Positions 1 to 51,595 of a stretch of 64,000 bases of DNA are shown here, one piece after another; position 1 is the stretch's first letter, and each line of letters opens with the position of its first letter. The notes under the pieces are model-generated. The model searched no databases. It was not told the DNA's origin and saw nothing but the letters and a program-made list of their open reading frames with translations. The position numbers and the translations under genes were made by a program. Origin of the DNA: Patescibacteria group bacterium (lineage in GTDB: Bacteria > Patescibacteriota > Minisyncoccia > UBA6257 > Brennerbacteraceae); the NCBI GenBank assembly GCA_040753135.1, contig JBFMGR010000001.1, positions 59,252 to 123,251 on the forward strand, read 5' to 3'.

Positions 1-821
1 AGGCAAGCGCTTTGGATAAAAAATTGTTTGACTATGATTCCTTGCAGGCGCGAGATGTAACTATGCGCAAGGTTGATATATTGACGAAAAAAGAGGAAGC
101 AAAAGAAGTGCTGGAATTTCCCTATGCTGACAATCCGCAGATGTATATTGCAAGCATTACTAACGCTGTTTTGAGATTTGCGAGAATCCCCGGGCATTTT
201 GACAAAGTCGCGCCGGAAGTCAAAGAATATATCGCGCAACATCTTTTCGGTAAAAAAGTTGACATTGCCAAACTTGAAACGCTGAAAAAACTTAATCACC
301 CCAAAGTGCGCGGCGCGATTGTTTCTGTTTTTGTTGACGCTATCAATAATTTGACGATTGTATCCGAGGAAGCGAAACTGGAAGAACGCAAAATGCGAGC
401 GTCCGAGATTAAACCGTTTCCGTGGACAAAAACAGCGGTGGCGGCGCAAAAATCCGTTTTGAACTTTACGCCCGTTGATAATGACTTTGAAGCAAAGTTT
501 GTGCGGTTTCTTGATGGCGCAACCGATGTTGACGCTTTTATCAAAAACGAAACAAGAACAATCAATCTAAAAATCTCCTATATCGCCAAGGACGGATTTT
601 TGCGTCGCTATATTCCGGACTTCATCGTCAAGATAAAAAGTGGTATGGTGATTGTAGAAACGAAAGGGCGGGAAGATGTGGACGTGGCGGCAAAGGATTT
701 ACAGGGCAAACGATGGGTTGACGAGGTAAGCAGGCGCACGAGAACAAAATGGACGTTTTTGCGCGTTAACCAAAGGGAATTTGAGAAAGCGAGGTATACT
801 AGGTTGATTGATTTAATATAG
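1..821 (+). CDS. C-terminal fragment of a restriction endonuclease subunit (type III Res-like; PD-(D/E)xK nuclease domain). The 5' end is truncated by the window start. The listed ORF begins at a TTG, but the frame is open back to position 3.
   Basis: Motif YIPDFIVKIK…VIVETKGRE matches a PD-(D/E)xK catalytic core. The reading frame stays open to the window edge. Confidence 0.4.
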   Translation, partial: ASALDKKLFDYDSLQARDVTMRKVDILTKKEEAKEVLEFPYADNPQMYIASITNAVLRFARIPGHFDKVAPEVKEYIAQHLFGKKVDIAKLETLKKLNHPKVRGAIVSVFVDAINNLTIVSEEAKLEERKMRASEIKPFPWTKTAVAAQKSVLNFTPVDNDFEAKFVRFLDGATDVDAFIKNETRTINLKISYIAKDGFLRRYIPDFIVKIKSGMVIVETKGREDVDVAAKDLQGKRWVDEVSRRTRTKWTFLRVNQREFEKARYTRLIDLI

Positions 822-838
822 AACCAATTTATATAATT

Positions 839-1339
839 ATGGATCCGGAAAATATCTTAAAAGGCAGAATGGCCGAGGCGCTGGTGAGCGAGATTTTGCG
901 CGAGGCAGGTAATCAGGTTTATCGTTTTGGCTATGAATCAATTTTACAGAACTTAACTCAAGTTGAAAAAGTTTTTGACAGAGAAACCGAGATTGGGGAG
1001 AAAATTCGTTCAATTCCGGATTTATTGGTGATTAACAAAGAAGGCAGGCCGTTCTTTATTGAGGTTAAATTTCGCTGGCAGCAAAAATGGCACGAAAATG
1101 ATTTCAAAATGTTGAAACGGCTGGAGAATTTTTGGGAGCCAATCATTGTTTTTGTAAATTGTTATGAAAAACCATATTTTCTTATTATCAAGGCGCCTTA
1201 TTATGATAAAAACAAAAAGCTGAAGGGTTTGCCGTTAGAAGAAACTAATTATTTTAATATCTCTAAAAGCGTTATTAAAAATTATAATGTTTTGGTGGAA
1301 AAATATTTGACCCCAACACTGAATAAAAATTCAGCATAA
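839..1339 (+). CDS. Hypothetical PD-(D/E)xK-type nuclease (Hjc/restriction-endonuclease-like fold).
   Basis: IPDLLVINKEGRPFFIEVKFR fits a D…E-x-K nuclease motif. The N-terminal GRMAEALVSEILREAGNQV helix resembles Hjc-like resolvases. Confidence 0.35.
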   Translation: MDPENILKGRMAEALVSEILREAGNQVYRFGYESILQNLTQVEKVFDRETEIGEKIRSIPDLLVINKEGRPFFIEVKFRWQQKWHENDFKMLKRLENFWEPIIVFVNCYEKPYFLIIKAPYYDKNKKLKGLPLEETNYFNISKSVIKNYNVLVEKYLTPTLNKNSA

Positions 1340-1343
1340 ATCT

Positions 1344-1709
1344 ATGGAGAGTTTTGAGGATTTTGAAACTAAGAATTTAAAATTTGACATTAAAAGCCTG
1401 AAAGGAACTAAGGCGAGTTTGCTGACGAGGATTTTGTTACGGTTTTGGCCAGAGAAGGGTATGATCTGGCTTGCCCGTGAACTTGGTTTGGCTACGGACT
1501 TGACTGAAAAAGCCAATGATTTATTTTCTAAAGTTAAAAGAGTTGAGATTGTGCCATCGGAGTCGTCTTTTGGTCGGGGTTTTAAAATTATTTTAGACAG
1601 GAATACCGCTTTGTATTTTGAGCAAGACGGCGATCATTTTGTTTATGATGGTCCAGAAATGGGAGAATACGAAAAAGGAGAGGTAACAATTTTTGATAAT
1701 CTAGAATAA
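1344..1709 (+). CDS. Hypothetical protein.
   Basis: 121-aa ORF with no recognisable motif; followed by a palindromic terminator. Confidence 0.3.
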   Translation: MESFEDFETKNLKFDIKSLKGTKASLLTRILLRFWPEKGMIWLARELGLATDLTEKANDLFSKVKRVEIVPSESSFGRGFKIILDRNTALYFEQDGDHFVYDGPEMGEYEKGEVTIFDNLE

Positions 1710-1727
1710 ATAAAATAAATATTAAAA

Positions 1728-1763
1728 TAACATTCCAACATTCTTAAGAATGTTGGAATGTTA
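1728..1763. terminator. Perfect palindrome taacattccaacattcttaagaatgttggaatgtta. It could act as a bidirectional terminator and/or an operator. This is copy 1 of 3.
   Basis: The perfect inverted repeat is read directly. It lies between the convergent ORF 1344–1709 (+) and the ArsR gene (−). Confidence 0.5.
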
Positions 1764-2028
1764 TTATGAATTTGACAAGCTCGTGGCCGTAAGGGGAAAG
1801 TGAATGTAATACGTTTCGCCCCTGATATTTTTTATTAACCAGCCCTGCTTGAACTAGTCTTCTGGTATGCTCGGAAATAGTTTTGATGTTGCAATTTAAT
1901 CTGTCTGCGATTTCTTCTACAGTTATCCCTTCAGTATTTTTGATCAATAATAGAATTTCAATCCGCCTGTGGTTCGCGATTCCTTTAAAATGCCGTTCTA
2001 ATTGTTTGCTTGTTTTAATTTTCTCCAT
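1744..2028 (-). CDS. ArsR/SmtB-family HTH transcriptional regulator. The listed ORF extends to a TTG at 2064, but the ATG at 2028 (MEKIK…) is the likelier start.
   Basis: HRRIEILLLI…ITVEEIADRLNCNIKTISEHTRRLVQAGLV is a typical ArsR winged-HTH signature. Confidence 0.7.
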   Translation of the reverse strand: MEKIKTSKQLERHFKGIANHRRIEILLLIKNTEGITVEEIADRLNCNIKTISEHTRRLVQAGLVNKKYQGRNVLHSLSPYGHELVKFIITFQHS

Positions 2029-2046
2029 AATTAAGATTATACAATG

Positions 2047-2080
2047 ATATTCCAATATTCTCAAGAATGTTGGAATGTTA
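2047..2080. promoter_or_regulatory. Copy 2 of the attccaa(c/t)attct(c/t)aagaatgttggaat palindrome, sitting in the promoter/5' region of the ArsR gene. It is a candidate autoregulatory operator.
   Basis: Near-perfect inverted repeat (1 mismatch) immediately upstream of the ArsR start codon. Confidence 0.4.
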
Positions 2081-2131
2081 AGGATGAGTCCGGATACTAT
2101 TTCAAGAACAGATCGAAAAAGTTAAAAATTT

Positions 2132-2195
2132 GTCGGGTCGGGGAGAATCGCTCCGTTAGGCAACGGGGCGCCCTGTCGCCTGACAGGGCGAACTC
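2132..2195 (-). other. Orphan 3' piece of tRNA-Pro: GAGTTCG, two hairpins, then ATTCTCCCCGACCCGACA (T-loop 3' half, T-stem and acceptor 3' strand).
   Basis: Identical, apart from one base, to the hairpin-containing segment at 2592–2640. It ends with the tRNA-Pro acceptor 3' strand. Confidence 0.6.
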
Positions 2196-2232
2196 GGATT
2201 GCGCTTTCAAAAAGGATCGGGAGGGTCAATTA

Positions 2233-2307
2233 TGGTCGGGTCGGGGAGAATCGAACTCCCATCGCAGGACCCCCAGCCCTGCATACTAACCATTGTACTA
2301 CGACCCG
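2233..2307 (-). tRNA. tRNA-Pro (anticodon GGG), intact, with CCA encoded.
   Basis: A manual cloverleaf gives acceptor CGGGTCG/CGACCCG, D-stem GTAC/GTAT, anticodon loop CTGGGGG, T-arm GGGAG-TTCGATT-CTCCC, discriminator A and CCA. Confidence 0.8.
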
Positions 2308-2570
2308 ATTGATTTTAATTTTTTAAGCGCTTCTCGATATTGTTTATTAAATAATCGTTTTCCTTCTGTTGTTTTCAAAAACCGTTCCCTTCTTCTGGCG
2401 TCGTTTTCATTTTGATAAGCTTCGTATCCGATAAAAGAAATTGGCCTTCTGTGTTTTGTTGATTTAACTTTGCCGCGTTTGTGTTCTTCAATTCTTTCCC
2501 GCAACCGCTTTGTTAAACCAGTGTAAACCTGATTATTTTTTAAAAGAAGAAAATAAACATAAGTAAACAT
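2298..2570 (-). CDS. GIY-YIG nuclease family protein (UPF0213/YhbQ-like, ~91 aa). Its last codons overlap the 5' end of tRNA-Pro.
   Basis: The N-terminus MFTYVYFLLLKNNQVYTGLTKRLRERIEEH…YEAYQNENDARRRERFLK carries GIY…YIG/R/E hallmarks. The ATG at 2570 follows the hairpin region. Confidence 0.75.
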   Translation of the reverse strand: MFTYVYFLLLKNNQVYTGLTKRLRERIEEHKRGKVKSTKHRRPISFIGYEAYQNENDARRRERFLKTTEGKRLFNKQYREALKKLKSIGS

Positions 2571-2591
2571 AGATGATACTTTATAAGGAAT

Positions 2592-2687
2592 CGCCCCGTT
2601 AGGCAACGGGGCGCCCTGTCGCCTGACAGGGCGAACTCCCATCGCAGGACCCCCAGCCCTGCATACTAACCATTGTACTACGACCCG
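2592..2687 (-). pseudogene. Second tRNA-Pro 5' portion (acceptor through the 5' T-stem plus TTCG), then two tandem hairpins (ccctgtcaggcgacaggg and cgccccgttgcctaacggggcg) in place of the rest of the T-loop. A split or interrupted tRNA-Pro copy.
   Basis: 2636–2687 is identical to the 5' 52 nt of the intact tRNA-Pro; 2592–2631 are two perfect stem-loops. Confidence 0.6.
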
Positions 2688-2777
2688 ATAGATTTTTTTG
2701 AATTATGAATTATAAATAATGAATGATGAGTAATGAATTGAGAATGTTCTTTTTATAATAATAGAATTTTTTAAACT

Positions 2778-2803
2778 AAAAAACCAGCAAGCGCTGGTTT
2801 TTT
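2778..2803. terminator. Hairpin aaaaaccagcaagcgctggttttt, the terminator for mgtC-like (−).
   Basis: GC stem flanked by A/T runs, immediately 3' of the minus-strand ORF 2871–3338. Confidence 0.5.
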
Positions 2804-2870
2804 AGTTTTTGTTATATTGAAAATTTGAATTTAAGATTTTATTTAGAAATTAGAAATTAGGAATTTTCCT

Positions 2871-3338
2871 TTAGTATTCATCTTCAGAGATTTTGAGCTG
2901 TTTTTCCAAACGCCACAAAATAATTAAAACAAATAAAACAATTAAGGTCGCGGTAATTGCCGAAATATAAGCGCCTAAACCAACCGCGGCGCCGATGGCT
3001 GAAGAAACCCAGACCGTGGCCGCGGTGGTCAAGCCGTGAAGTTTTTTCTCGTGGAAGATAATCAAGCCCGCGCCCAAAAAGCCCAAGCCGACAATCAGCT
3101 GGCTTAAGACCCGGGTTGGGTCAATTGAGGCGCCAACAAGATTAAACCAGTATTTAGGAATAATGTCATTGCCTAAAATCACAAACAAGGCGCTGCCCAA
3201 AGAAACTAAAGAAAAGGTCCGCAAGCCCGCTTCTTTGTGGGAAAGCCGCCTTTCCAAACCAATCAGCATTCCCAAAACCGTAGCTAAGATCAGTTTTAAA
3301 ACAATTTCTTTTTCAGTGATGAACAAAAAATTAGGCAT
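2871..3338 (-). CDS. mgtC: MgtC/SapB family membrane protein.
   Basis: GLRT…IDPTRV…LIVGLGFLGAG…GLTTAATVW…AIGAAVGLG are MgtC family signatures; multiple transmembrane segments. Confidence 0.65.
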   Translation of the reverse strand: MPNFLFITEKEIVLKLILATVLGMLIGLERRLSHKEAGLRTFSLVSLGSALFVILGNDIIPKYWFNLVGASIDPTRVLSQLIVGLGFLGAGLIIFHEKKLHGLTTAATVWVSSAIGAAVGLGAYISAITATLIVLFVLIILWRLEKQLKISEDEY

Positions 3339-3525
3339 TGAGTTTTTTCTTGTGAGTTCTAAAGCACTGGGCGCAAGCCTTGACCCGCTTGCCTGACGCC
3401 AAAGTCAGCCATTGAAGATTGGGATATTTTCTGGTTTTTACGGTTGGGTTGTAATTGCCGCGCAAAAGCTTTCTTTTGCCAACCATTTTTGAGCCTTTGC
3501 CGCAGATTTGACAGACGCGAGCCAT
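3331..3525 (-). CDS. rpmB: 50S ribosomal protein L28.
   Basis: MARVCQICGKG…LRGNYNPT…KYPNLQ…GKRVKACAQCFR. Confidence 0.8.
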   Translation of the reverse strand: MARVCQICGKGSKMVGKRKLLRGNYNPTVKTRKYPNLQWLTLASGKRVKACAQCFRTHKKKLNA

Positions 3526-3926
3526 AATGATAAATGATGAATGATGAATTATGAATTAAGAGTGATGAATTAGGGAGTTTTGAGAATTATTAATAATATA
3601 CTTTAAATTAGGGGAATAATCAAGGAGCAATCTCTAATATACCAATCTGGGCAAATATACAAATTTAGCAGCGCGTTGCTTTATTATTTATAAATCCATT
3701 AAGAATTTAAATTCGCAAATTGAAAACTGCAAATTAAATTAATTTTAATTTATGCCCCGTTGTTGGAAACTCATCTGTATGGCGGGATAGGGTTTTATTG
3801 CTTCATTGCTTCATTGCTCTGTCCTACCAATTTACTAATCAATACTAATTATACTAATAAATTCATTGGTAGATATTAGCAACAATTGGTAAATTAGTGG
3901 GGCTCTATTAAAAATAATCTCGCTTC

Positions 3927-3959
3927 GTCTCGTTATGCGAGATTTAGCGTAGCTACGAC
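3927..3959. repeat. 33-nt element gtctcgttatgcgagatttagcgtagctacgac. An inverted, near-identical copy lies at 46304–46336.
   Basis: Direct comparison: the reverse complement of 46304–46336 differs at 2 positions. It contains the nested palindromes tctcg…cgaga and gtagctac. Confidence 0.6.
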
Positions 3960-4038
3960 GAGATCCGATAAAGCCAGAAAAATTGAAAGCTGCTTAGAAA
4001 TTAGGAATTGGAAATTGGGAATTATGCTATAGTATTTT

Positions 4039-4668
4039 ATGCTGACCTTGTTTTACTTTATTGTTTTTATCTTTTCTGCAGTGATTCACGAGATTTCCCA
4101 TGGCTATGCGGCTAAAGCTTTGGGCGATGACACGGCCGAACGTTCCGGACGGCTGACTCTGAATCCGGTTTCCCATTTAGATTTATTCGGCTCGGTGATT
4201 TTGCCGCTGATGTTTTATTTAACCTCAAAATTAGCCGGCGGATTTGGGATTATTCTTGGTTGGGCCAAACCGGTGCCGTATAATCCGTTTAATTTAAAAA
4301 ACCCGAAAAAAGGCGCTTTGCTGATTGCTCTGGCCGGGCCGATGTCTAATTTTTCTTTGGCTTTGCTTTTAAGCAGTTTGTTTCGTTTGGGCTTGATTGG
4401 ATTTAACAGCGCTTTGGGCGAGTTGTTGGCGATTATCATTCTGATTAACTTAATGCTTGGTATTTTTAATCTGGTGCCGATCCCGCCATTGGACGGCTCA
4501 AAAGTTTTATTCGGGCTTTTGCCGGCGTCTTGGTATAAATTGGAAGAGTTTTTAAACCAGTATAGTTTGATTATTTTTTTGATGTTTTTGTTTTGGGGCA
4601 TTGGCATTGTCGGATTTTTGGTTGGCTGGCTGTTTCAGCTTTTGACCGGGATTGGTTTGGGGGTTTAG
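4039..4668 (+). CDS. Site-2 protease family (peptidase M50) membrane metalloprotease.
   Basis: HEISHG zinc motif and NLVPIPPLDG motif; multi-pass membrane protein. Confidence 0.65.
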   Translation: MLTLFYFIVFIFSAVIHEISHGYAAKALGDDTAERSGRLTLNPVSHLDLFGSVILPLMFYLTSKLAGGFGIILGWAKPVPYNPFNLKNPKKGALLIALAGPMSNFSLALLLSSLFRLGLIGFNSALGELLAIIILINLMLGIFNLVPIPPLDGSKVLFGLLPASWYKLEEFLNQYSLIIFLMFLFWGIGIVGFLVGWLFQLLTGIGLGV

Positions 4669-4890
4669 CCCCGCACTGAATTTTTGGCAGTGGCTCAGCG
4701 CTTTTTGTTGATTGCTTATAAGCATTGATGATGCTTGATAAAGGAGTTAAACCAATCCTGGATTATTTTATTAGGTTTCAGCTTCGCTACAAAAAGCTGC
4801 CAAAAATCTAGTCCGGGGTTGATTTCTGCTTTTATTTTTGATAATCTTTAAAAAGCCGTTTGGGTTGATTTTTTTTATCTTTATAAAAAG

Positions 4891-5313
4891 ATGCCAACAG
4901 TCAGACAATTAATTAAAAAAGGCAGAAAGCCGATTGTTAAAAAAACTAAAAGCGTGGCTCTGCGACGCTATTTTAACCCATTGAAAAATCGGTATAAAGC
5001 GGCGCCGTCGCCGTTCAAGCGCGGTGTCTGCACTAAGGTTTTTGCCACGACTCCGAAAAAACCAAACTCGGCTTTGAGAAAAGTGGCTCGGGTCAGGTTA
5101 ACCAATGGCATGGAAGTAACTGCTTATATTCCGGGCGAGGGCCATAATCTCCAAGAGCATTCAGTGGTGGTAATTCGGGGCGGCCGGGTTAAAGACTTGC
5201 CCGGAGTCCGCTACCATGTTGTCCGGGGCGTGCTTGACACCACTGGAGTCGGCAAGAGAAAACAGCAGCGTTCTAAATACGGCGCCAAGAAAGAGAAAGC
5301 CAAAACCGAGTAA
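4891..5313 (+). CDS. rpsL: 30S ribosomal protein S12.
   Basis: [12 protein letters not shown]…KRGVCTKV…[19 protein letters not shown]…. Confidence 0.9.
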
Positions 5314-5443
5314 GGTTACTAATATACTAATTTGTACCAATAACTACTTATTTATAAATTATAAATCTTTGTGGAAGAATTAATTAGTTCAGGCCTATTA
5401 GTATAATTAGTATTGATTAGTAAATTGGTAGGCGATTTATACT

Positions 5444-5911
5444 ATGAGGAGAAAAGTCGATTACAAAAGAAAATATCAGCCGGATCCAAAATACCAAAGC
5501 CAGTTGGTCGGCCGGTTTATTAATCAGATAATGAGAAAGGGCAAGAAAACTGTTGCCCAGAGGGTTGTTTATCAAACTTTTGATTTGGTTGAAAAGCAAG
5601 CCAAGCAAGAGCCGTTGGCTGTGTTTGAGCAGGCGATTAAAAATGTCTCGCCTTTTTTAGAAGTTAAATCAAAGAGAATTGGCGGGGCGAATTATCAGGT
5701 GCCGGTTGAAGTCCAGGGCGAGAGAAAAATTACTTTAGCAATGCGCTGGATTCTTCAGGCGAGCCGGTCAAGAAAAGGCAAGGCGATGGCAGAAAAATTG
5801 GCTGAAGAGCTGATTCAGGCGTCTCATAATGAAGGCGCGGCAATCAAGAAAAGAACTGACGTCCAGAAAATGGCTGAAGCCAACCGGGCCTTTGCGCACT
5901 TCGCTCGATAG
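5444..5911 (+). CDS. rpsG: 30S ribosomal protein S7.
   Basis: YQSQLVGRFINQIMRKGKKTVAQRVVY…EVKSKRIGGANYQVPVEV. Confidence 0.9.
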   Translation: MRRKVDYKRKYQPDPKYQSQLVGRFINQIMRKGKKTVAQRVVYQTFDLVEKQAKQEPLAVFEQAIKNVSPFLEVKSKRIGGANYQVPVEVQGERKITLAMRWILQASRSRKGKAMAEKLAEELIQASHNEGAAIKKRTDVQKMAEANRAFAHFAR

Positions 5912-5957
5912 ATAGCCTACTAATGTACTAATCTTTACCAATGGTACTAATTTTATA

Positions 5958-6356
5958 ATGGCAGACAGCAGTAAAAAGATAATTGATTTAGTTTATCCTG
6001 AATTAAGTTATAAAATAGTCGGAATTTTGTTTACAGTGTTTAATGAATTGGGTTATGGTTATCAAGAAAAATATTATCAGAAGGCAATTGCTAAAGTTTT
6101 GGGAGACAACAAAATTTATTTCAGGGAACAGGTTTATTTGCCCCTTGAGTTTAATGGGGAGGGAATTGGAAATTATTATTTAGATTTTTTAATAGAAAAT
6201 AAACTAATCTTGGAGATTAAGAGGGGTGATCGATTTTTAAAAAGAAATATTGAACAAGTTTATTCTTATCTGAAAAGATCTAATCTGCGGCTGGGCATTA
6301 TTGCCAATTTTACCAAACAAGGCCTAAGATTTAAACGAATCGTAAATATAAAATAG
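5958..6356 (+). CDS. GxxExxY family protein (PD-(D/E)xK-related), inserted between rpsG and fusA.
   Basis: Literal G-YQ-E-KY-Y motif (ELGYGYQEKYYQKAI); ~130 aa as is typical for this family. Confidence 0.7.
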   Translation: MADSSKKIIDLVYPELSYKIVGILFTVFNELGYGYQEKYYQKAIAKVLGDNKIYFREQVYLPLEFNGEGIGNYYLDFLIENKLILEIKRGDRFLKRNIEQVYSYLKRSNLRLGIIANFTKQGLRFKRIVNIK

Positions 6357-29720: not shown

Positions 29721-29808
29721 GCGCAGGTAGTCCCGTAGGGGCCGGGAGCGGTCTGTAAAACCGTTGGCCACGTTGCCCGCGTGAGTTCGACTCTCACTCT
29801 GCGCACCA
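29721..29808 (+). tRNA. tRNA-Tyr (anticodon GTA) with a long variable arm and encoded CCA.
   Basis: Acceptor GCGCAGG/TCTGCGC, anticodon loop CTGTAAA, T-arm GTGAG-TTCGACT-CTCAC. Confidence 0.8.
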
Positions 29809-29837: not shown

Positions 29838-29912
29838 GGCCCTATCGTCTAGCCCGGCCTAGGACATCGCCCTCTCACGGCGAAAACACGGGTTCAAATC
29901 CCGTTGGGGCTG
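29838..29912 (+). tRNA. tRNA-Glu (anticodon CTC).
   Basis: Acceptor GGCCCTA/TGGGGCT (two G·U pairs), anticodon loop CTCTCAC, T-arm ACGGG-TTCAAAT-CCCGT. Confidence 0.7.
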
Positions 29913-29968
29913 CTAAACTATATGAAAACGAAGTTGTTAAAAACATGCGTTTCTTTCAATAAAAACAA

Positions 29969-45644: not shown

Positions 45645-45717
45645 GCCGAGATAGCTCAGTTGGCAGAGCACGCCCTTGGTAAGGGCGAGGTCCCGGGTTC
45701 AAGTCCCGGTCTCGGCT
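45645..45717 (+). tRNA. tRNA-Thr (anticodon GGT).
   Basis: Acceptor GCCGAGA/TCTCGGC, anticodon loop TTGGTAA, T-arm CCGGG-TTCAAGT-CCCGG. Confidence 0.8.
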
Positions 45718-45870
45718 CAAAATTTGCTAATCGCTAATAGCAAATGGCGAATAGCAAATAATTTTCCTGCCGAAGGTCTCTCCGAGAGAAATAAAATAAC
45801 TGTTGAAATATTGCTAATATTTAATAAATAGTTTAGAATCTGGAATTAATATTTAGAGTTTATAGAATTT

Positions 45871-46452: not shown

Positions 46453-46523
46453 GGGGGCTTGGTGTAGTGGTAACACAACGGTCTCCAAAACCGTTGACGA
46501 GGGTTCGATTCCTTCAGCCCCTG
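46453..46523 (+). tRNA. tRNA-Trp (anticodon CCA).
   Basis: Acceptor GGGGGCT/AGCCCCT, anticodon loop CTCCAAA, T-arm GAGGG-TTCGATT-CCTTC. Confidence 0.75.
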
Positions 46524-46528
46524 CTTTA

Positions 46529-51433: not shown

Positions 51434-51504
51434 TGCGGGGTCGTCTAAAGGTAGGACGTTTGGTTCTGGCCCAAAAAATTGGGGTTCGAATCCCTGCCCC
51501 GCAG
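51434..51504 (+). tRNA. tRNA-Gln (anticodon CTG), with the U1:A72 pair typical of tRNA-Gln.
   Basis: Acceptor TGCGGGG/CCCCGCA, anticodon loop TTCTGGC, T-loop TTCGAAT. Confidence 0.65.
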
Positions 51505-51595
51505 CACTTCGGCAAGCTTAGCGTAGGTCTCTTCGATTCGCCCAGCGCAAGTGTCATAACTCGCCAGGAGATAATCTTGAATCAAGGATTAAATT

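What the first reader, a model, noticed from the sequence alone, without database searches (positions are those of the whole stretch)
2132..2687. A ~48-nt direct repeat brackets a GIY-YIG nuclease gene plus an intact tRNA-Pro, implying a tRNA-Pro copy with a two-hairpin insertion in the T-loop
Read 5'→3' on the minus strand, the locus contains, in order:
- the 5' 52 nt of tRNA-Pro, up to the 5' T-stem (2687→2636);
- TTCG, then two perfect back-to-back hairpins (ccctgtcaggcgacaggg, cgccccgttgcctaacggggcg), then ATTC;
- a 91-aa GIY-YIG nuclease ORF (2570→2298) whose last codons overlap the next element;
- a complete 75-nt tRNA-Pro(GGG) with a normal TTCGATT T-loop (2307→2233);
- a 37-nt spacer;
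- GAGTTCG plus the same two hairpins (1 substitution) and ATTCTCCCCGACCCGACA, the missing 3' T-stem and acceptor strand (2195→2132).
So a ~48-nt direct repeat (GAGTTCG-hairpins-ATTC) brackets a GIY-YIG gene plus an intact tRNA. Joining the outer pieces gives a tRNA-Pro carrying a 40-nt structured insertion between T-loop positions 57 and 58.
GIY-YIG enzymes are classic homing endonucleases of introns, but bacterial tRNA introns are group I and sit in anticodon loops. A T-loop intervening sequence, or a split tRNA, would be unusual in a bacterium.
Alternative readings are a recombination scar, or an endonuclease-mediated duplication that captured a tRNA copy.
Basis: partly seen in the sequence, partly recalled or inferred. 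Interest (0 to 1): 0.8.

Follow-up and report, generated by a model that had tools for sequence, protein, structure and literature searches.

The report
tRNA-splitting GIY-YIG cassette with rescue tRNA
A small selfish DNA cassette (a mini nuclease gene, a spare tRNA-Pro gene and two copies of a 40-base double hairpin) has been inserted into the T-loop of this bacterium's tRNA-Pro gene, and it belongs to a widespread family of tRNA-targeting cassettes in Patescibacteria that I could not find described in the searchable literature.

Summary
On the minus strand, a tRNA-Pro(GGG) gene is split in its T-loop. Between the halves lie a 90-aa GIY-YIG ORF and a complete tRNA-Pro(GGG), bracketed by a 51-nt direct repeat (GAGTTCG, double hairpin, ATTC).

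It is not a T-loop intron or a split tRNA. It is one copy of a large cassette family.
- In 80 metagenomic loci picked only by ORF homology, 72 have an intact same-strand tRNA touching the ORF.
- 75 of the 80 carry the same double hairpin (HP).
- HP is 42 nt: CG-hairpin-CG-hairpin-CG. It sits exactly after the CG of YYCG|RA in tRNA T-loops or anticodon loops.
- Its stems covary almost without G-U, and it scores equally on both strands. That points to a DNA-level element.
- HP-bearing tRNA pieces are nearly always dead fragments beside an intact tRNA.
- In sister loci (L138, L147, L015) the split outer tRNA and the inner intact tRNA are different alleles. The inner tRNA is therefore cargo.

Best reading: a homing-type mobile cassette that breaks a tRNA gene and supplies its replacement. 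The minimal Slx1/UPF0213-like nuclease probably acts on the hairpins. The movement mechanism is inferred, not shown. I found no published description.

The parts
2632..2687 (-). 5' fragment (nt 1-56, up to the G of T-loop TTCG) of the resident, now split, tRNA-Pro(GGG) gene
   Evidence: 56/56 identical to the intact copy. Sub-threshold tRNA hit of 21.7 bits. Not called by ARAGORN.
2592..2633 (.). Left double-hairpin unit (HP): CG-hairpin-CG-hairpin-CG, 42 nt including the CG of TTCG. The inserted part is 2592-2631.
   Evidence: CM R1 hit of 56.7/53.7 bits on the +/- strands. Two 9-bp stems sharing the central CG. DNA fold z = -3.85.
2571..2591 (-). ATTC(C), a remnant of the T-loop/T-stem 3' side, plus a 16-nt leader before the ATG
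   Evidence: Sequence. The same 'HP, 9-34 nt, ATG' layout occurs in sister loci.
2298..2570 (-). Stand-alone minimal GIY-YIG nuclease gene (90 aa; about 80-aa core, Slx1/UPF0213-like). Its last codons and stop run into the next tRNA.
   Evidence: Pfam PF01541, E 2.7e-12. PDB 1zg2/1ywl UPF0213, E about 1e-10. Family-invariant Y6, Y16, R26, H30 and E62 are all present. 100% match to a Patescibacteria MAG protein.
2233..2307 (-). Intact tRNA-Pro(GGG) with a normal TTCGATT T-loop and encoded CCA: the functional (rescue/cargo) copy
   Evidence: ARAGORN. Rfam RF00005, 60 bits.
2196..2232 (-). 37-nt spacer of unknown origin between the intact tRNA and the right HP
   Evidence: Sequence. Spacers of 6-118 nt occupy the same position in 37 sister arrangements.
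2149..2195 (.). GAGTT (remnant of the T-stem 5' side) plus the right HP unit (2149-2190). It is 41/42 identical to the left HP and in the same orientation.
2132..2148 (-). 3' fragment (T-loop A58 through the acceptor 3' strand and discriminator) of the split resident tRNA-Pro gene
   Evidence: 19/19 identical to the intact copy, counting the CG (repeat D5). Joined to the 5' fragment it makes a valid tRNA-Pro.

Best explanation
The locus is a composite mobile cassette sitting inside the T-loop of the resident tRNA-Pro(GGG) gene. Its layout is [tRNA 1-56]-HP-(ATTC)-leader-GIY-YIG ORF-[complete tRNA-Pro(GGG)]-spacer-(GAGTT)-HP-[tRNA 58-73].

The inner complete tRNA is the working gene. The two outer pieces are the halves of the disrupted original gene and are not spliced or joined.

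HP is a 38-bp, strand-symmetric double-hairpin DNA module. It is found inserted exactly at the CG of YYCG|RA in 7-nt tRNA loops, with the CG present on both sides. This is compatible with a 2-nt staggered cut.

The about 80-aa GIY-YIG protein has no DNA-binding domain and belongs to the Slx1/UPF0213 branch, whose eukaryotic founder Slx1 is a structure-selective nuclease. It is inferred to be the nuclease that nicks or cuts at the folded hairpins or at the loop target.

Recombinational repair is inferred to install HP plus the ORF and a replacement tRNA. One candidate route is crossover integration of a small circle carrying 'a-HP-b'; homing from a cassette-bearing allele is another. Because the cassette destroys a tRNA gene and supplies the substitute, the host cannot easily lose it.

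Simpler relatives can be derived from this complete form by deletion between the duplicated tRNA segments. These are 'fragment-HP-ORF-tRNA', 'tRNA-ORF-HP-fragment' and the ORF-less 'tRNA-spacer-HP-fragment'.

Shown: the anatomy, the family, the target motif, the DNA-like covariation and the cargo tRNA in sister loci. Inferred: nuclease activity, its substrate, and the recombination route.
For: 1. Family. Homologues at about 55-65% identity, and the few looked up at random, all sit against a tRNA with the same hairpins.

2. ORF-selected set.
- 54 have 'ORF then tRNA' and 18 have 'tRNA then ORF' on the same strand.
- The HP covariance model hits 75 of the 80 loci. It hits the 64-kb window only at the two reported sites.

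3. HP-selected set. Most hits are Patescibacteria, and several MAGs carry 3-5 copies.

4. Target. The junction is CG| in 24 of 28 cleanly assignable loci. There are 15 T-loop and 13 anticodon-loop insertions. The anticodon-loop cases are mostly Ser(CGA), Arg(CCG) and Arg(TCG) (10 of 13), whose loops contain YCG|RA. HPs are also nested inside the TTCGA-like loop of other HPs.

5. DNA-level element. 98.8% of cells are paired, 14 of 14 pairs show double-sided changes (403 cells), and one-sided G-U changes number only 0-2 per pair. Bit scores are equal on both strands.

6. Fragments are dead. Excision of HP restores a tRNA in 1 of about 110 cases. Most 'HP-ORF-tRNA' loci have no 3' fragment.

7. 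Cargo. In L138, L147 and L015 the joined outer halves form a valid tRNA of the same isoacceptor. Its sequence is only 70-83% identical to the inner tRNA. In L138 and L147 the outer acceptor strands are complementary to each other (GGAGGAG/CTCCTCC) and differ from the inner tRNA's.

8. Paired HPs. The two HPs of one locus are 41-42/42 identical in the window, L138, L147 and L152. In L158 the comparable part (the contig ends inside the second copy) is identical, 40/40, and includes the same nested hairpin. HPs of different loci differ.

9. Mobility.
- At least 20 tRNA species are occupied.
- Nearest-neighbour ORFs share the same tRNA in only 25 of 72 cases.
- Degenerate or frameshifted ORFs and ORF-less relics occur.

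10. Nuclease. All family-invariant catalytic-type residues are present. The protein matches UPF0213 structures. Slx1, YhbQ and YazA form one family of structure-selective nucleases (PMC7017083).
Against: - No empty-site/filled-site pair between close relatives was found. The window's tRNA-Pro has no exact relatives in the metagenome collection, and the nearest ORF is only 73% identical.
- In the window the inner and outer tRNA sequences are identical (73/73). Here the 'cargo' could equally be a local duplication or the result of gene conversion.
- The intact tRNAs beside cassettes keep TTCGA. G57A shows no enrichment (14/90 vs 33/169, p = 0.5). A nuclease that cut plain duplex T-loops would therefore attack its own rescue copy and every other tRNA.
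- GIY-YIG enzymes hydrolyse DNA and do not transfer strands, so integration must rely on host recombination. That is untested.
- How the element changes tRNA species while always carrying the matching tRNA is unexplained.
- The covariation alignment was fitted to the model, which favours pairing.
Confidence: 0.75

Rival explanations
1. T-loop intervening sequence or split tRNA. The outer pieces are transcribed and the 40-nt hairpin pair is removed, or the halves are joined in trans, to give a second functional tRNA-Pro.
For: The joined outer pieces fold as a cloverleaf with an extended T-arm (-60.8 kcal/mol, z = -4.6). With the HP removed they are a perfect tRNA-Pro. In the window both pieces are undecayed.
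Against: - No intron family matches, there is no bulge-helix-bulge motif, and a complete tRNA-Pro(GGG) lies between the pieces.
- In the family the fragments usually lack a partner, often diverge from the intact tRNA, and collect extra hairpin insertions.
- The stems lack G-U and the element is strand-symmetric.
- The pieces are 440 nt apart, with an ORF and a tRNA between them.
Confidence: 0.03
2. A passive recombination scar. On this reading the tRNA was locally tandem-duplicated. One copy was hit by a REP/MITE-like palindromic repeat moved by host functions. The GIY-YIG gene is an unrelated resident, for example a repair nuclease that merely uses the tRNA promoter.
For: - Inner and outer tRNA sequences are identical in the window.
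- About two thirds of HP sites in the genome scan have no ORF.
- UPF0213 proteins also occur as single-copy genes in ordinary bacteria (PMC7017083).
Against: - The ORF-HP-tRNA association is near-universal when loci are chosen by ORF alone: 75/80 with HP and 72/80 with a touching tRNA.
- The same tight architecture recurs on at least 20 tRNA species, and closely related ORFs sit on different tRNAs.
- Inner tRNAs are foreign alleles in L138, L147 and L015.
- Several loci hold tandem, degenerate or frameshifted ORF copies (L001, L071, L122, L197/L200), as expected for a selfish gene.
Confidence: 0.12
3. A domesticated or regulatory RNA-level module. HP plus the tRNA fragment would act in the transcript as a processing site, terminator or tRNA mimic that controls expression of the nuclease or the tRNA. 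Alternatively the cassette could be a defence that occupies phage attachment sites in tRNA genes.
For: - The ORF is always co-oriented with the tRNA, starts 0-30 nt from a tRNA end or an HP, and often ends inside the tRNA. Co-transcription and RNase P/Z processing are therefore likely.
- The second hairpin is scored as terminator-like.
Against: - Strand symmetry and the near absence of G-U argue against selection on one RNA strand.
- HPs are nested and pile up in dead fragments.
- There is no PADLOC defence hit beyond noise, no PHROG hit, and the family is almost absent from viral contigs.
Confidence: 0.08

Closest known systems
Free-standing GIY-YIG homing endonuclease genes of T4-like phages (Seg family; SegB lies in the T4 tRNA gene cluster; PMC2330249)
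   Same: - A GIY-YIG nuclease gene not housed in an intron, placed among tRNA genes.
- Spread attributed to a break in the naive allele, with the gene and its flanks copied across.
- 2-nt 3' overhangs are typical of the family, matching the CG found on both sides of HP.
   Different: - The protein here is only the about 80-aa catalytic core with no DNA-binding domain, and it falls in the Slx1/UPF0213 branch.
- The element sits inside a tRNA gene, carries a replacement tRNA, and is coupled to a conserved double hairpin.
- It is chromosomal in Patescibacteria and virtually absent from viral contigs.
Double-hairpin elements of Allomyces mitochondria (Paquin, Laforest and Lang 2000, as cited in PMC7218506), and mitochondrial mobile GIY-YIG ORFs that insert at a gene's end with a replacement terminus (the latter from my own recollection of Paquin et al. 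1994, not checked here)
   Same: - Short, GC-rich, back-to-back hairpins that are multi-copy and thought to be mobile.
- An endonuclease ORF whose insertion keeps the host gene working by bringing a substitute piece and displacing the original as a fragment.
   Different: - Bacterial rather than mitochondrial.
- The target is a defined motif (YYCG|RA) in tRNA loops.
- The substitute is a whole tRNA gene.
- No sequence relation was tested.
Integrase-driven genomic islands and prophages that integrate into tRNA or tmRNA genes
   Same: They target the T-loop or anticodon-loop region, regenerate an intact tRNA, and leave a displaced partial copy as a direct repeat.
   Different: - The cassette has no tyrosine or serine recombinase and is only about 0.45 kb.
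- The junctions carry an inserted hairpin module rather than a simple att core.
MITE/REP-type palindromic repeats and hairpin-dependent systems (REP/RAYT, IS200/IS605, integron attC)
   Same: Structure is conserved while sequence varies, with compensatory changes. ORF-less copies are numerous and insertion is next to a short specific motif.
   Different: The associated enzyme is a GIY-YIG nuclease, not an HUH or tyrosine enzyme. The element is a 38-bp pair of inverted hairpin modules, specific for tRNA loops.
Group I introns in tRNA genes of Patescibacteria (PMC13011429) and non-intron insertions encoding GIY-YIG proteins in CPR rRNA genes (PMC11270868)
   Same: The same bacterial group, with structural RNA genes interrupted and homing-endonuclease families involved.
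   Different: No ribozyme core is present, the site is the T-loop, and an intact gene copy is provided instead of splicing. The rRNA GIY-YIG insertions are uncharacterised and could be related, but this was not tested.

Membership tests
GIY-YIG nuclease superfamily (Pfam PF01541) | Sequence match to the GIY-YIG catalytic domain above the curated cut-off | tested here: met
   47.2 bits against a cut-off of 22.6, E 2.7e-12
GIY-YIG nuclease superfamily (Pfam PF01541) | Conserved catalytic-type residues (two Tyr, Arg, His, Glu) | tested here: met
   Y6, Y16, R26, H30 and E62 are invariant in 24 family members including the window protein. The mapping to I-TevI residues is from memory.
UPF0213 / Slx1-YhbQ-YazA branch (minimal stand-alone GIY-YIG) | Closest solved relatives are UPF0213 proteins, and the domain is alone with no extra modules | tested here: met
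   1zg2 at E 2.2e-10 and 1ywl at E 7.7e-9, the only PDB hits. The conserved core is about 80 aa.
Classical GIY-YIG homing endonucleases (I-TevI, Seg type) | C-terminal DNA-binding domain joined by a linker (proteins of about 200-270 aa) | tested here: not met
   90 aa in total, with variable tails that are run-on translation of HP or tRNA. The group I intron endonuclease model scores only 16.3 bits against a cut-off of 56.
Classical GIY-YIG homing endonucleases (I-TevI, Seg type) | Cleaves the element-free allele and shows presence/absence polymorphism | not testable with these tools
   No close relatives of the locus were found. A biochemical assay is needed.
Bacterial tRNA group I intron | Group I ribozyme core, with insertion in the anticodon loop | tested here: not met
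   No Rfam intron hit at gathering or at E <= 1. The site is the T-loop, and the intervening 440 nt hold an ORF and a tRNA.
Archaeal-type split or BHB-intron tRNA | Bulge-helix-bulge motif at the exon-intron junctions, or complementary leader sequences joining the halves | tested here: not met
   The insertion folds as two plain 7-9 bp hairpins with 4-nt loops. The repeats are direct, not complementary. The family fragments mostly lack partners.
Integrase-mediated tRNA-targeting island | Tyrosine or serine recombinase gene within the element | tested here: not met
   The only ORF between the repeats is the GIY-YIG gene. Pfam scans of six neighbouring ORFs within about 4 kb (window 12-6356) show no integrase.
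MITE/REP-like palindromic mobile repeat | Multi-copy, structure-conserved short palindromic unit with a defined insertion motif and ORF-less copies | tested here: met
   More than 120 genomic loci (cap reached) with several copies per MAG. Covariation. CG-flanked insertion at YYCG|RA. ORF-less copies.
IS200/IS605 or REP/RAYT or integron attC systems | Associated HUH (Y1) transposase or tyrosine recombinase | tested here: not met
   The associated protein is GIY-YIG in 75 of 80 ORF-selected loci. None of the other enzymes is present in the window cassette.

The most novel reading that the evidence does not exclude
A previously undescribed class of bacterial mobile element. It is an 'addictive' micro-cassette of about 0.45 kb that inserts into the universally conserved TTCGAA-type loops of tRNA genes. 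It uses an about 80-aa structure-specific GIY-YIG nuclease and a 38-bp double-hairpin module as its recognition and recombination handle. It carries a rescue copy of the very tRNA it destroys. It has proliferated across Patescibacteria, and occasionally Omnitrophota, Verrucomicrobiota and Kiritimatiellota, on at least 20 tRNA species.
Probability: 0.5. Interest if true: 0.85.

Novelty: new variant of a known kind. Interest (0 to 1): 0.75.

Why it matters
- **Function of an uncharacterised family.** It would give a function, or at least a testable substrate, to the large stand-alone UPF0213/Slx1-like GIY-YIG family. That family is abundant in CPR genomes and currently annotated only as 'GIY-YIG nuclease family protein'.
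- **A new strategy for selfish DNA.** The cassette splits an essential tRNA gene at its most conserved motif and brings the replacement along.
- **Annotation.** Many database proteins of this family have tails or heads that are translated hairpin or tRNA sequence, for example ...GSPSHTTGRPVE. Partial tRNA genes next to them are relics, not assembly errors.
- **Possible tool.** An 80-residue nuclease paired with a 38-bp hairpin handle and a 6-bp target could interest enzyme engineers.

Tried and rejected
- **Intron or known RNA.** Rfam at gathering and at E <= 1 gave only the tRNA, a sub-threshold hit on the 5' fragment, and noise.
- **Empty site.** An exact or degenerate pattern for the tRNA-Pro(GGG) 5' part in metagenome contigs gave 0 hits. 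The nearest ORF relative is 73% identical. No orthologous empty locus could therefore be examined.
- **Phage vector.**
  - The HP pattern gave 0 hits in IMG/VR.
  - The protein family gave one distant hit at 39%.
  - There was no PHROG hit.
- **Defence system.** PADLOC gave only noise, E about 0.005-0.009 with no passing stretch.
- **Target immunity by G57A (TTCA T-loops) in cassette-adjacent tRNAs.** There is no enrichment: 14/90 vs 33/169, p = 0.5.
- **Solo HP in a complete tRNA as the common state.** Rejected; 1 of about 110.
- **The window arrangement as an atypical member.** This was my first impression. It was rejected once 54 of 80 ORF-selected loci showed the same 'HP-ORF-tRNA' order. 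The double-HP form also recurred (L138, L147, L152, L158, L203, L214, L013, L015).
- **Literature.** Seven full-text searches and the papers read found no description of a GIY-YIG/double-hairpin/tRNA cassette. Subscription-only literature was not searchable.
- **Automated junction typing.** My script mis-picks the natural tRNA-Ser variable arm as a hairpin in about a dozen loci. Those were left unclassified.
Full report
**1.

Read on the minus strand, the region contains, in order:
- the first 56 nt of a tRNA-Pro(GGG), 2687->2632;
- a 40-nt insertion made of two perfect hairpins, 2631->2592;
- ATTC(C) and a 16-nt leader;
- a 90-aa ORF, 2570->2298;
- a complete tRNA-Pro(GGG), 2307->2233 (ARAGORN; Rfam 60 bits);
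- a 37-nt spacer;
- GAGTT plus the same hairpin pair with one substitution, 2195->2149;
- the last 17 nt of the tRNA, 2148->2132.

The repeat finder gives three repeats: the 5' copy (65 nt, 98%), the hairpin repeat (58 nt, 93%; 51 nt with one mismatch) and the 3' copy (19/19). The 40-mer occurs twice in the window against 0 expected. The ORF is a GIY-YIG domain (PF01541, E 2.7e-12). The protein is 100% identical to one from a Patescibacteria MAG, and the next relative is 73% identical.

**2. The locus belongs to a family**

I looked up the genomic context of eight homologues (55-69% identical). All but one sit against an intact tRNA (Ser, Asp or Gly), and all eight have the same kind of hairpin pair fused to a tRNA fragment.

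I then sampled the family in two independent ways.

Almost all are Patescibacteria lineages, with a few from Omnitrophota, Verrucomicrobiota and Kiritimatiellota. Several MAGs hold 3-5 copies.

A protein-profile scan of metagenome contigs, blind to hairpins and tRNAs, confirmed 442 relatives before its cap and returned 80 loci. In those 80:
- 54 have 'ORF then an intact same-strand tRNA', with a gap of -49 to +36 nt.
- 18 have 'tRNA then ORF'.
- Four more have a tRNA 95-166 nt away.
- Three of the rest are cut by contig ends.

A covariance model built from 71 hairpin units finds the unit in 75 of the 80 loci. It hits the 64-kb window only at the two reported places. The window's order, 'fragment-HP-ORF-tRNA', is the majority architecture. 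The full form with a second HP and a 3' fragment recurs in L013, L015, L138, L147, L152, L158, L203 and L214.

**3. What the hairpin unit is**

With the CG of TTCG included, the unit is 42 nt: CG-[7 bp, 4-nt loop]-CG-[7 bp, 4-nt loop]-CG. Equivalently it is two 9-bp hairpins sharing the central CG (79 of 137 pattern matches have exactly this geometry).
- The tops of the two stems (GTC-ATTC-GAC and GTC-GAAT-GAC) are reverse complements of each other, so the element reads the same on both strands. The model accordingly scores both strands alike.
- On 136 distinct copies, 98.8% of cells pair. All 14 pairs show changes on both sides (403 cells; covariation score 0.62 against 0.18 in shuffles). One-sided (G-U type) changes number 0-2 per pair.
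- Near absence of G-U together with strand symmetry is what a DNA hairpin, cruciform or palindrome constraint predicts. A helix selected on one RNA strand would not look like this. This step is inference.
- When the outer CG changes to TG or CA, the central and distal dinucleotides change in step.

The unit lies exactly after the CG of YYCG|RA.
- In the T-loop the motif is TTCG|AA.
- In anticodon loops it occurs mostly in tRNAs whose loop has the motif. Of the 13 anticodon-loop cases, 10 are Ser(CGA) CTCG|AA, Arg(CCG) TCCG|AA or Arg(TCG) TTCG|GA/AA.
- Of 28 cleanly assignable loci, 15 are T-loop and 13 anticodon-loop insertions, and 24 have CG| at the junction.
- The hairpins' own loops contain TTCGA. 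HPs are found nested in them, and single hairpins accumulate in the dead tRNA fragments (L012, L158, L166, L168, L173, L210).

In the window, the intact T-arm GGGAGTTCGATTCTCCCC and the two interrupted copies form a paralogous empty-site/filled-site comparison. It shows a clean 40-nt insertion with CG on both sides.

**4. The hairpin-bearing tRNA pieces are not working genes**

- Removing the unit in silico restores an ARAGORN-recognisable tRNA in 1 of about 110 copies.
- In most 'HP-ORF-tRNA' loci there is only a 5' fragment. It is often 100% identical to the neighbouring tRNA (L047 36/36, L050 55/55, L076 69/69, window 56/56), and no 3' fragment is present.
- In 'tRNA-(ORF or spacer)-HP-fragment' loci, the 3' fragment ranges from identical to about 50-65% identical.
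- No intron or other RNA family matches the window region.

This rules out the T-loop intron or split tRNA reading for the family. By extension it makes that reading very unlikely for the window, where an intact tRNA-Pro(GGG) lies between the pieces.

**5. The inner tRNA can be cargo**

For the double-HP loci I joined the outer pieces across the whole cassette. ARAGORN accepts the product in six of eight.
- In L138 the outer tRNA-Ser(GGA) has acceptor strands GGAGGAG/CTCCTCC and is 62/88 identical to the inner tRNA-Ser(GGA), which has GGAAGGG/CCCTTCC.
- L147 is similar, at 67/87.
- In L015 the identity is 75/90.

In those loci the inner tRNA is therefore a different allele brought in with the ORF, not a local duplicate.

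In the window (73/73), L214 (86/88) and L152 (83/88), inner and outer are the same or nearly so. That fits a recent event between like alleles, a local duplication, or gene conversion.

The two HPs of one locus are 41-42/42 identical in the window, L138, L147 and L152. In L158 the comparable 40 nt (the contig ends inside the second copy) are identical and include the same nested insertion. HPs of different loci differ in their variable stem positions. So the HP was duplicated in the event that built the composite.

**6. The protein**

- The conserved core is about 80 aa and ends at ...QQYRDIL. The tails are run-on translation into HP or into the tRNA.
- Y6, Y16, R26, H30 and E62 are invariant.
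- The only solved relatives are two UPF0213 structural-genomics proteins.
- This is the Slx1/YhbQ/YazA branch, whose eukaryotic founder is a structure-selective nuclease (PMC7017083; PMC1564403).
- There is no DNA-binding domain, so long-sequence recognition of the I-TevI type is unlikely.
- Intact tRNAs beside cassettes are not enriched for TTCA T-loops. The enzyme therefore probably does not cut ordinary duplex T-loops freely. Action on the folded hairpins or on single-stranded loops is the more economical idea. This is inference.

**7. Proposed mechanism, inferred**

The nuclease makes a break at the CG of a YYCG|RA loop, or at an HP. The short T-arm remnants that always flank HP on the ORF side (GAGTT... 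and ...ATTC in the window) supply homology to any T-loop.
- Non-crossover repair copies HP alone. This kills the tRNA and is rarely retained.
- Crossover with a circular or allelic donor carrying 'a-HP-b', the ORF and a tRNA yields fragment-HP-ORF-tRNA-spacer-HP-fragment, the window's structure.
- Deletion between the duplicated 3' segments then gives the common 'fragment-HP-ORF-tRNA' form.
- Deletion between the 5' segments gives the ORF-less 'tRNA-spacer-HP-fragment' form (37 examples).
- The mirror composite (L147) gives 'tRNA-ORF-HP-fragment'.

Transcription most likely comes from the split gene's own promoter region, with the ORF co-transcribed with the tRNA. The consensus scan is uninformative here.

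Signs of a selfish life cycle:
- At least 20 tRNA species are occupied.
- Nearest-neighbour ORFs share the tRNA in only 25 of 72 cases.
- Several loci hold tandem, degenerate or frameshifted ORF copies.
- ORF-less relics are many.

Unexplained points:
- how the matching rescue tRNA is acquired when the target species changes;
- the origin of the 37-nt spacer;
- self-immunity.

**8. Comparison with known systems and novelty**

It works most like a free-standing homing endonuclease gene (T4 SegB among tRNA genes, PMC2330249). It also resembles mitochondrial mobile ORFs that bring a replacement gene end, combined with a mobile double-hairpin repeat (Allomyces DHEs, cited in PMC7218506).

It fails the membership tests for classical GIY-YIG homing enzymes (no DNA-binding domain), group I introns, archaeal split or BHB tRNAs, integrase islands, and HUH or tyrosine hairpin systems.

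The recent Patescibacteria literature describes group I introns at tRNA position 35/36 (PMC13011429) and uncharacterised GIY-YIG-encoding, non-intron insertions in rRNA genes (PMC11270868). It does not describe this cassette. Within the searchable literature it appears to be undescribed. I rate it a new variant of a known kind (homing-type selfish cassette plus palindromic mini-element), with a fair chance that the mechanism is new.

Noticed in passing
window 1726-1765 and 2027-2080: A perfect 40-nt palindrome (AATAACATTCCAACATTCTT/AAGAATGTTGGAATGTTATT) lies just past the 3' end of the MarR/ArsR-type regulator gene (1744-2064, minus strand). An 80-89% copy lies at its 5' end, overlapping the best promoter-like site (2064->2036). 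These are probably operator or terminator sites for autoregulation.
   Followed up: no
window 2298-2642 (minus strand): An in-frame ATG inside the T-stem of the 5' tRNA fragment extends the ORF to 114 aa through the hairpins (MGVRPVRRQGAPLPNGAIPYKVSS-MFTYVY...). In databases many family proteins carry such heads, or tails like GSPSHTTGRPVE, that are simply translated HP or tRNA sequence.
   Followed up: partly
window 12-821, 839-1339 and 1344-1709 (plus strand): Three ORFs lie just downstream of the cassette on the opposite strand. The first has a weak, sub-threshold TnsA-like endonuclease N-terminal match (E 1.9e-4). The other two have no Pfam hit. This may be another mobile or defence-type island next to the tRNA locus.
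   Followed up: no
window 5958-6356 (plus strand): A PD-(D/E)XK nuclease-family ORF (PF13366, E 1e-28) is wedged right after the rpsL/rpsG ribosomal protein genes. Small stand-alone nuclease genes seem to be scattered through this genome.
   Followed up: no
L025, L078, L081, L083, L115 (one Liptonbacteria MAG, JACRFR01): At least five HP copies share the same non-tRNA left flank (GGGCCTT..AAGGCCCGACCTCA.AAATTCG) and right flank (GGTCGCCCCCC..TATTCTC). In this genome HP appears to ride on, or have invaded, a larger dispersed repeat.
   Followed up: no
L020 (Omnitrophota MAG), 83-124 and 306-347: Adjacent tRNA-Met and tRNA-Val genes are each followed by the same 38-nt spacer, the same HP and their own 3'-end fragment. 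The spacer sequence starts again after the second fragment. An ORF-less 'spacer+HP' module seems to have been copied from one tRNA to the next.
   Followed up: partly
L003/L006, downstream gene (about 4718-6297 of L003): The gyrB gene next to one cassette carries an intein with a LAGLIDADG endonuclease. Several kinds of homing-type selfish elements therefore lie within a few kb in these genomes.
   Followed up: no
window tRNAs at 29721-29808, 29838-29913, 45645-45718, 46453-46524 and 51434-51505: Three other tRNAs in the window (Tyr, Trp, Gln) have TTCGA T-loops but no HP. Only tRNA-Tyr and the inner tRNA-Pro encode CCA, and the 3' fragment of the split tRNA-Pro does not.
   Followed up: partly
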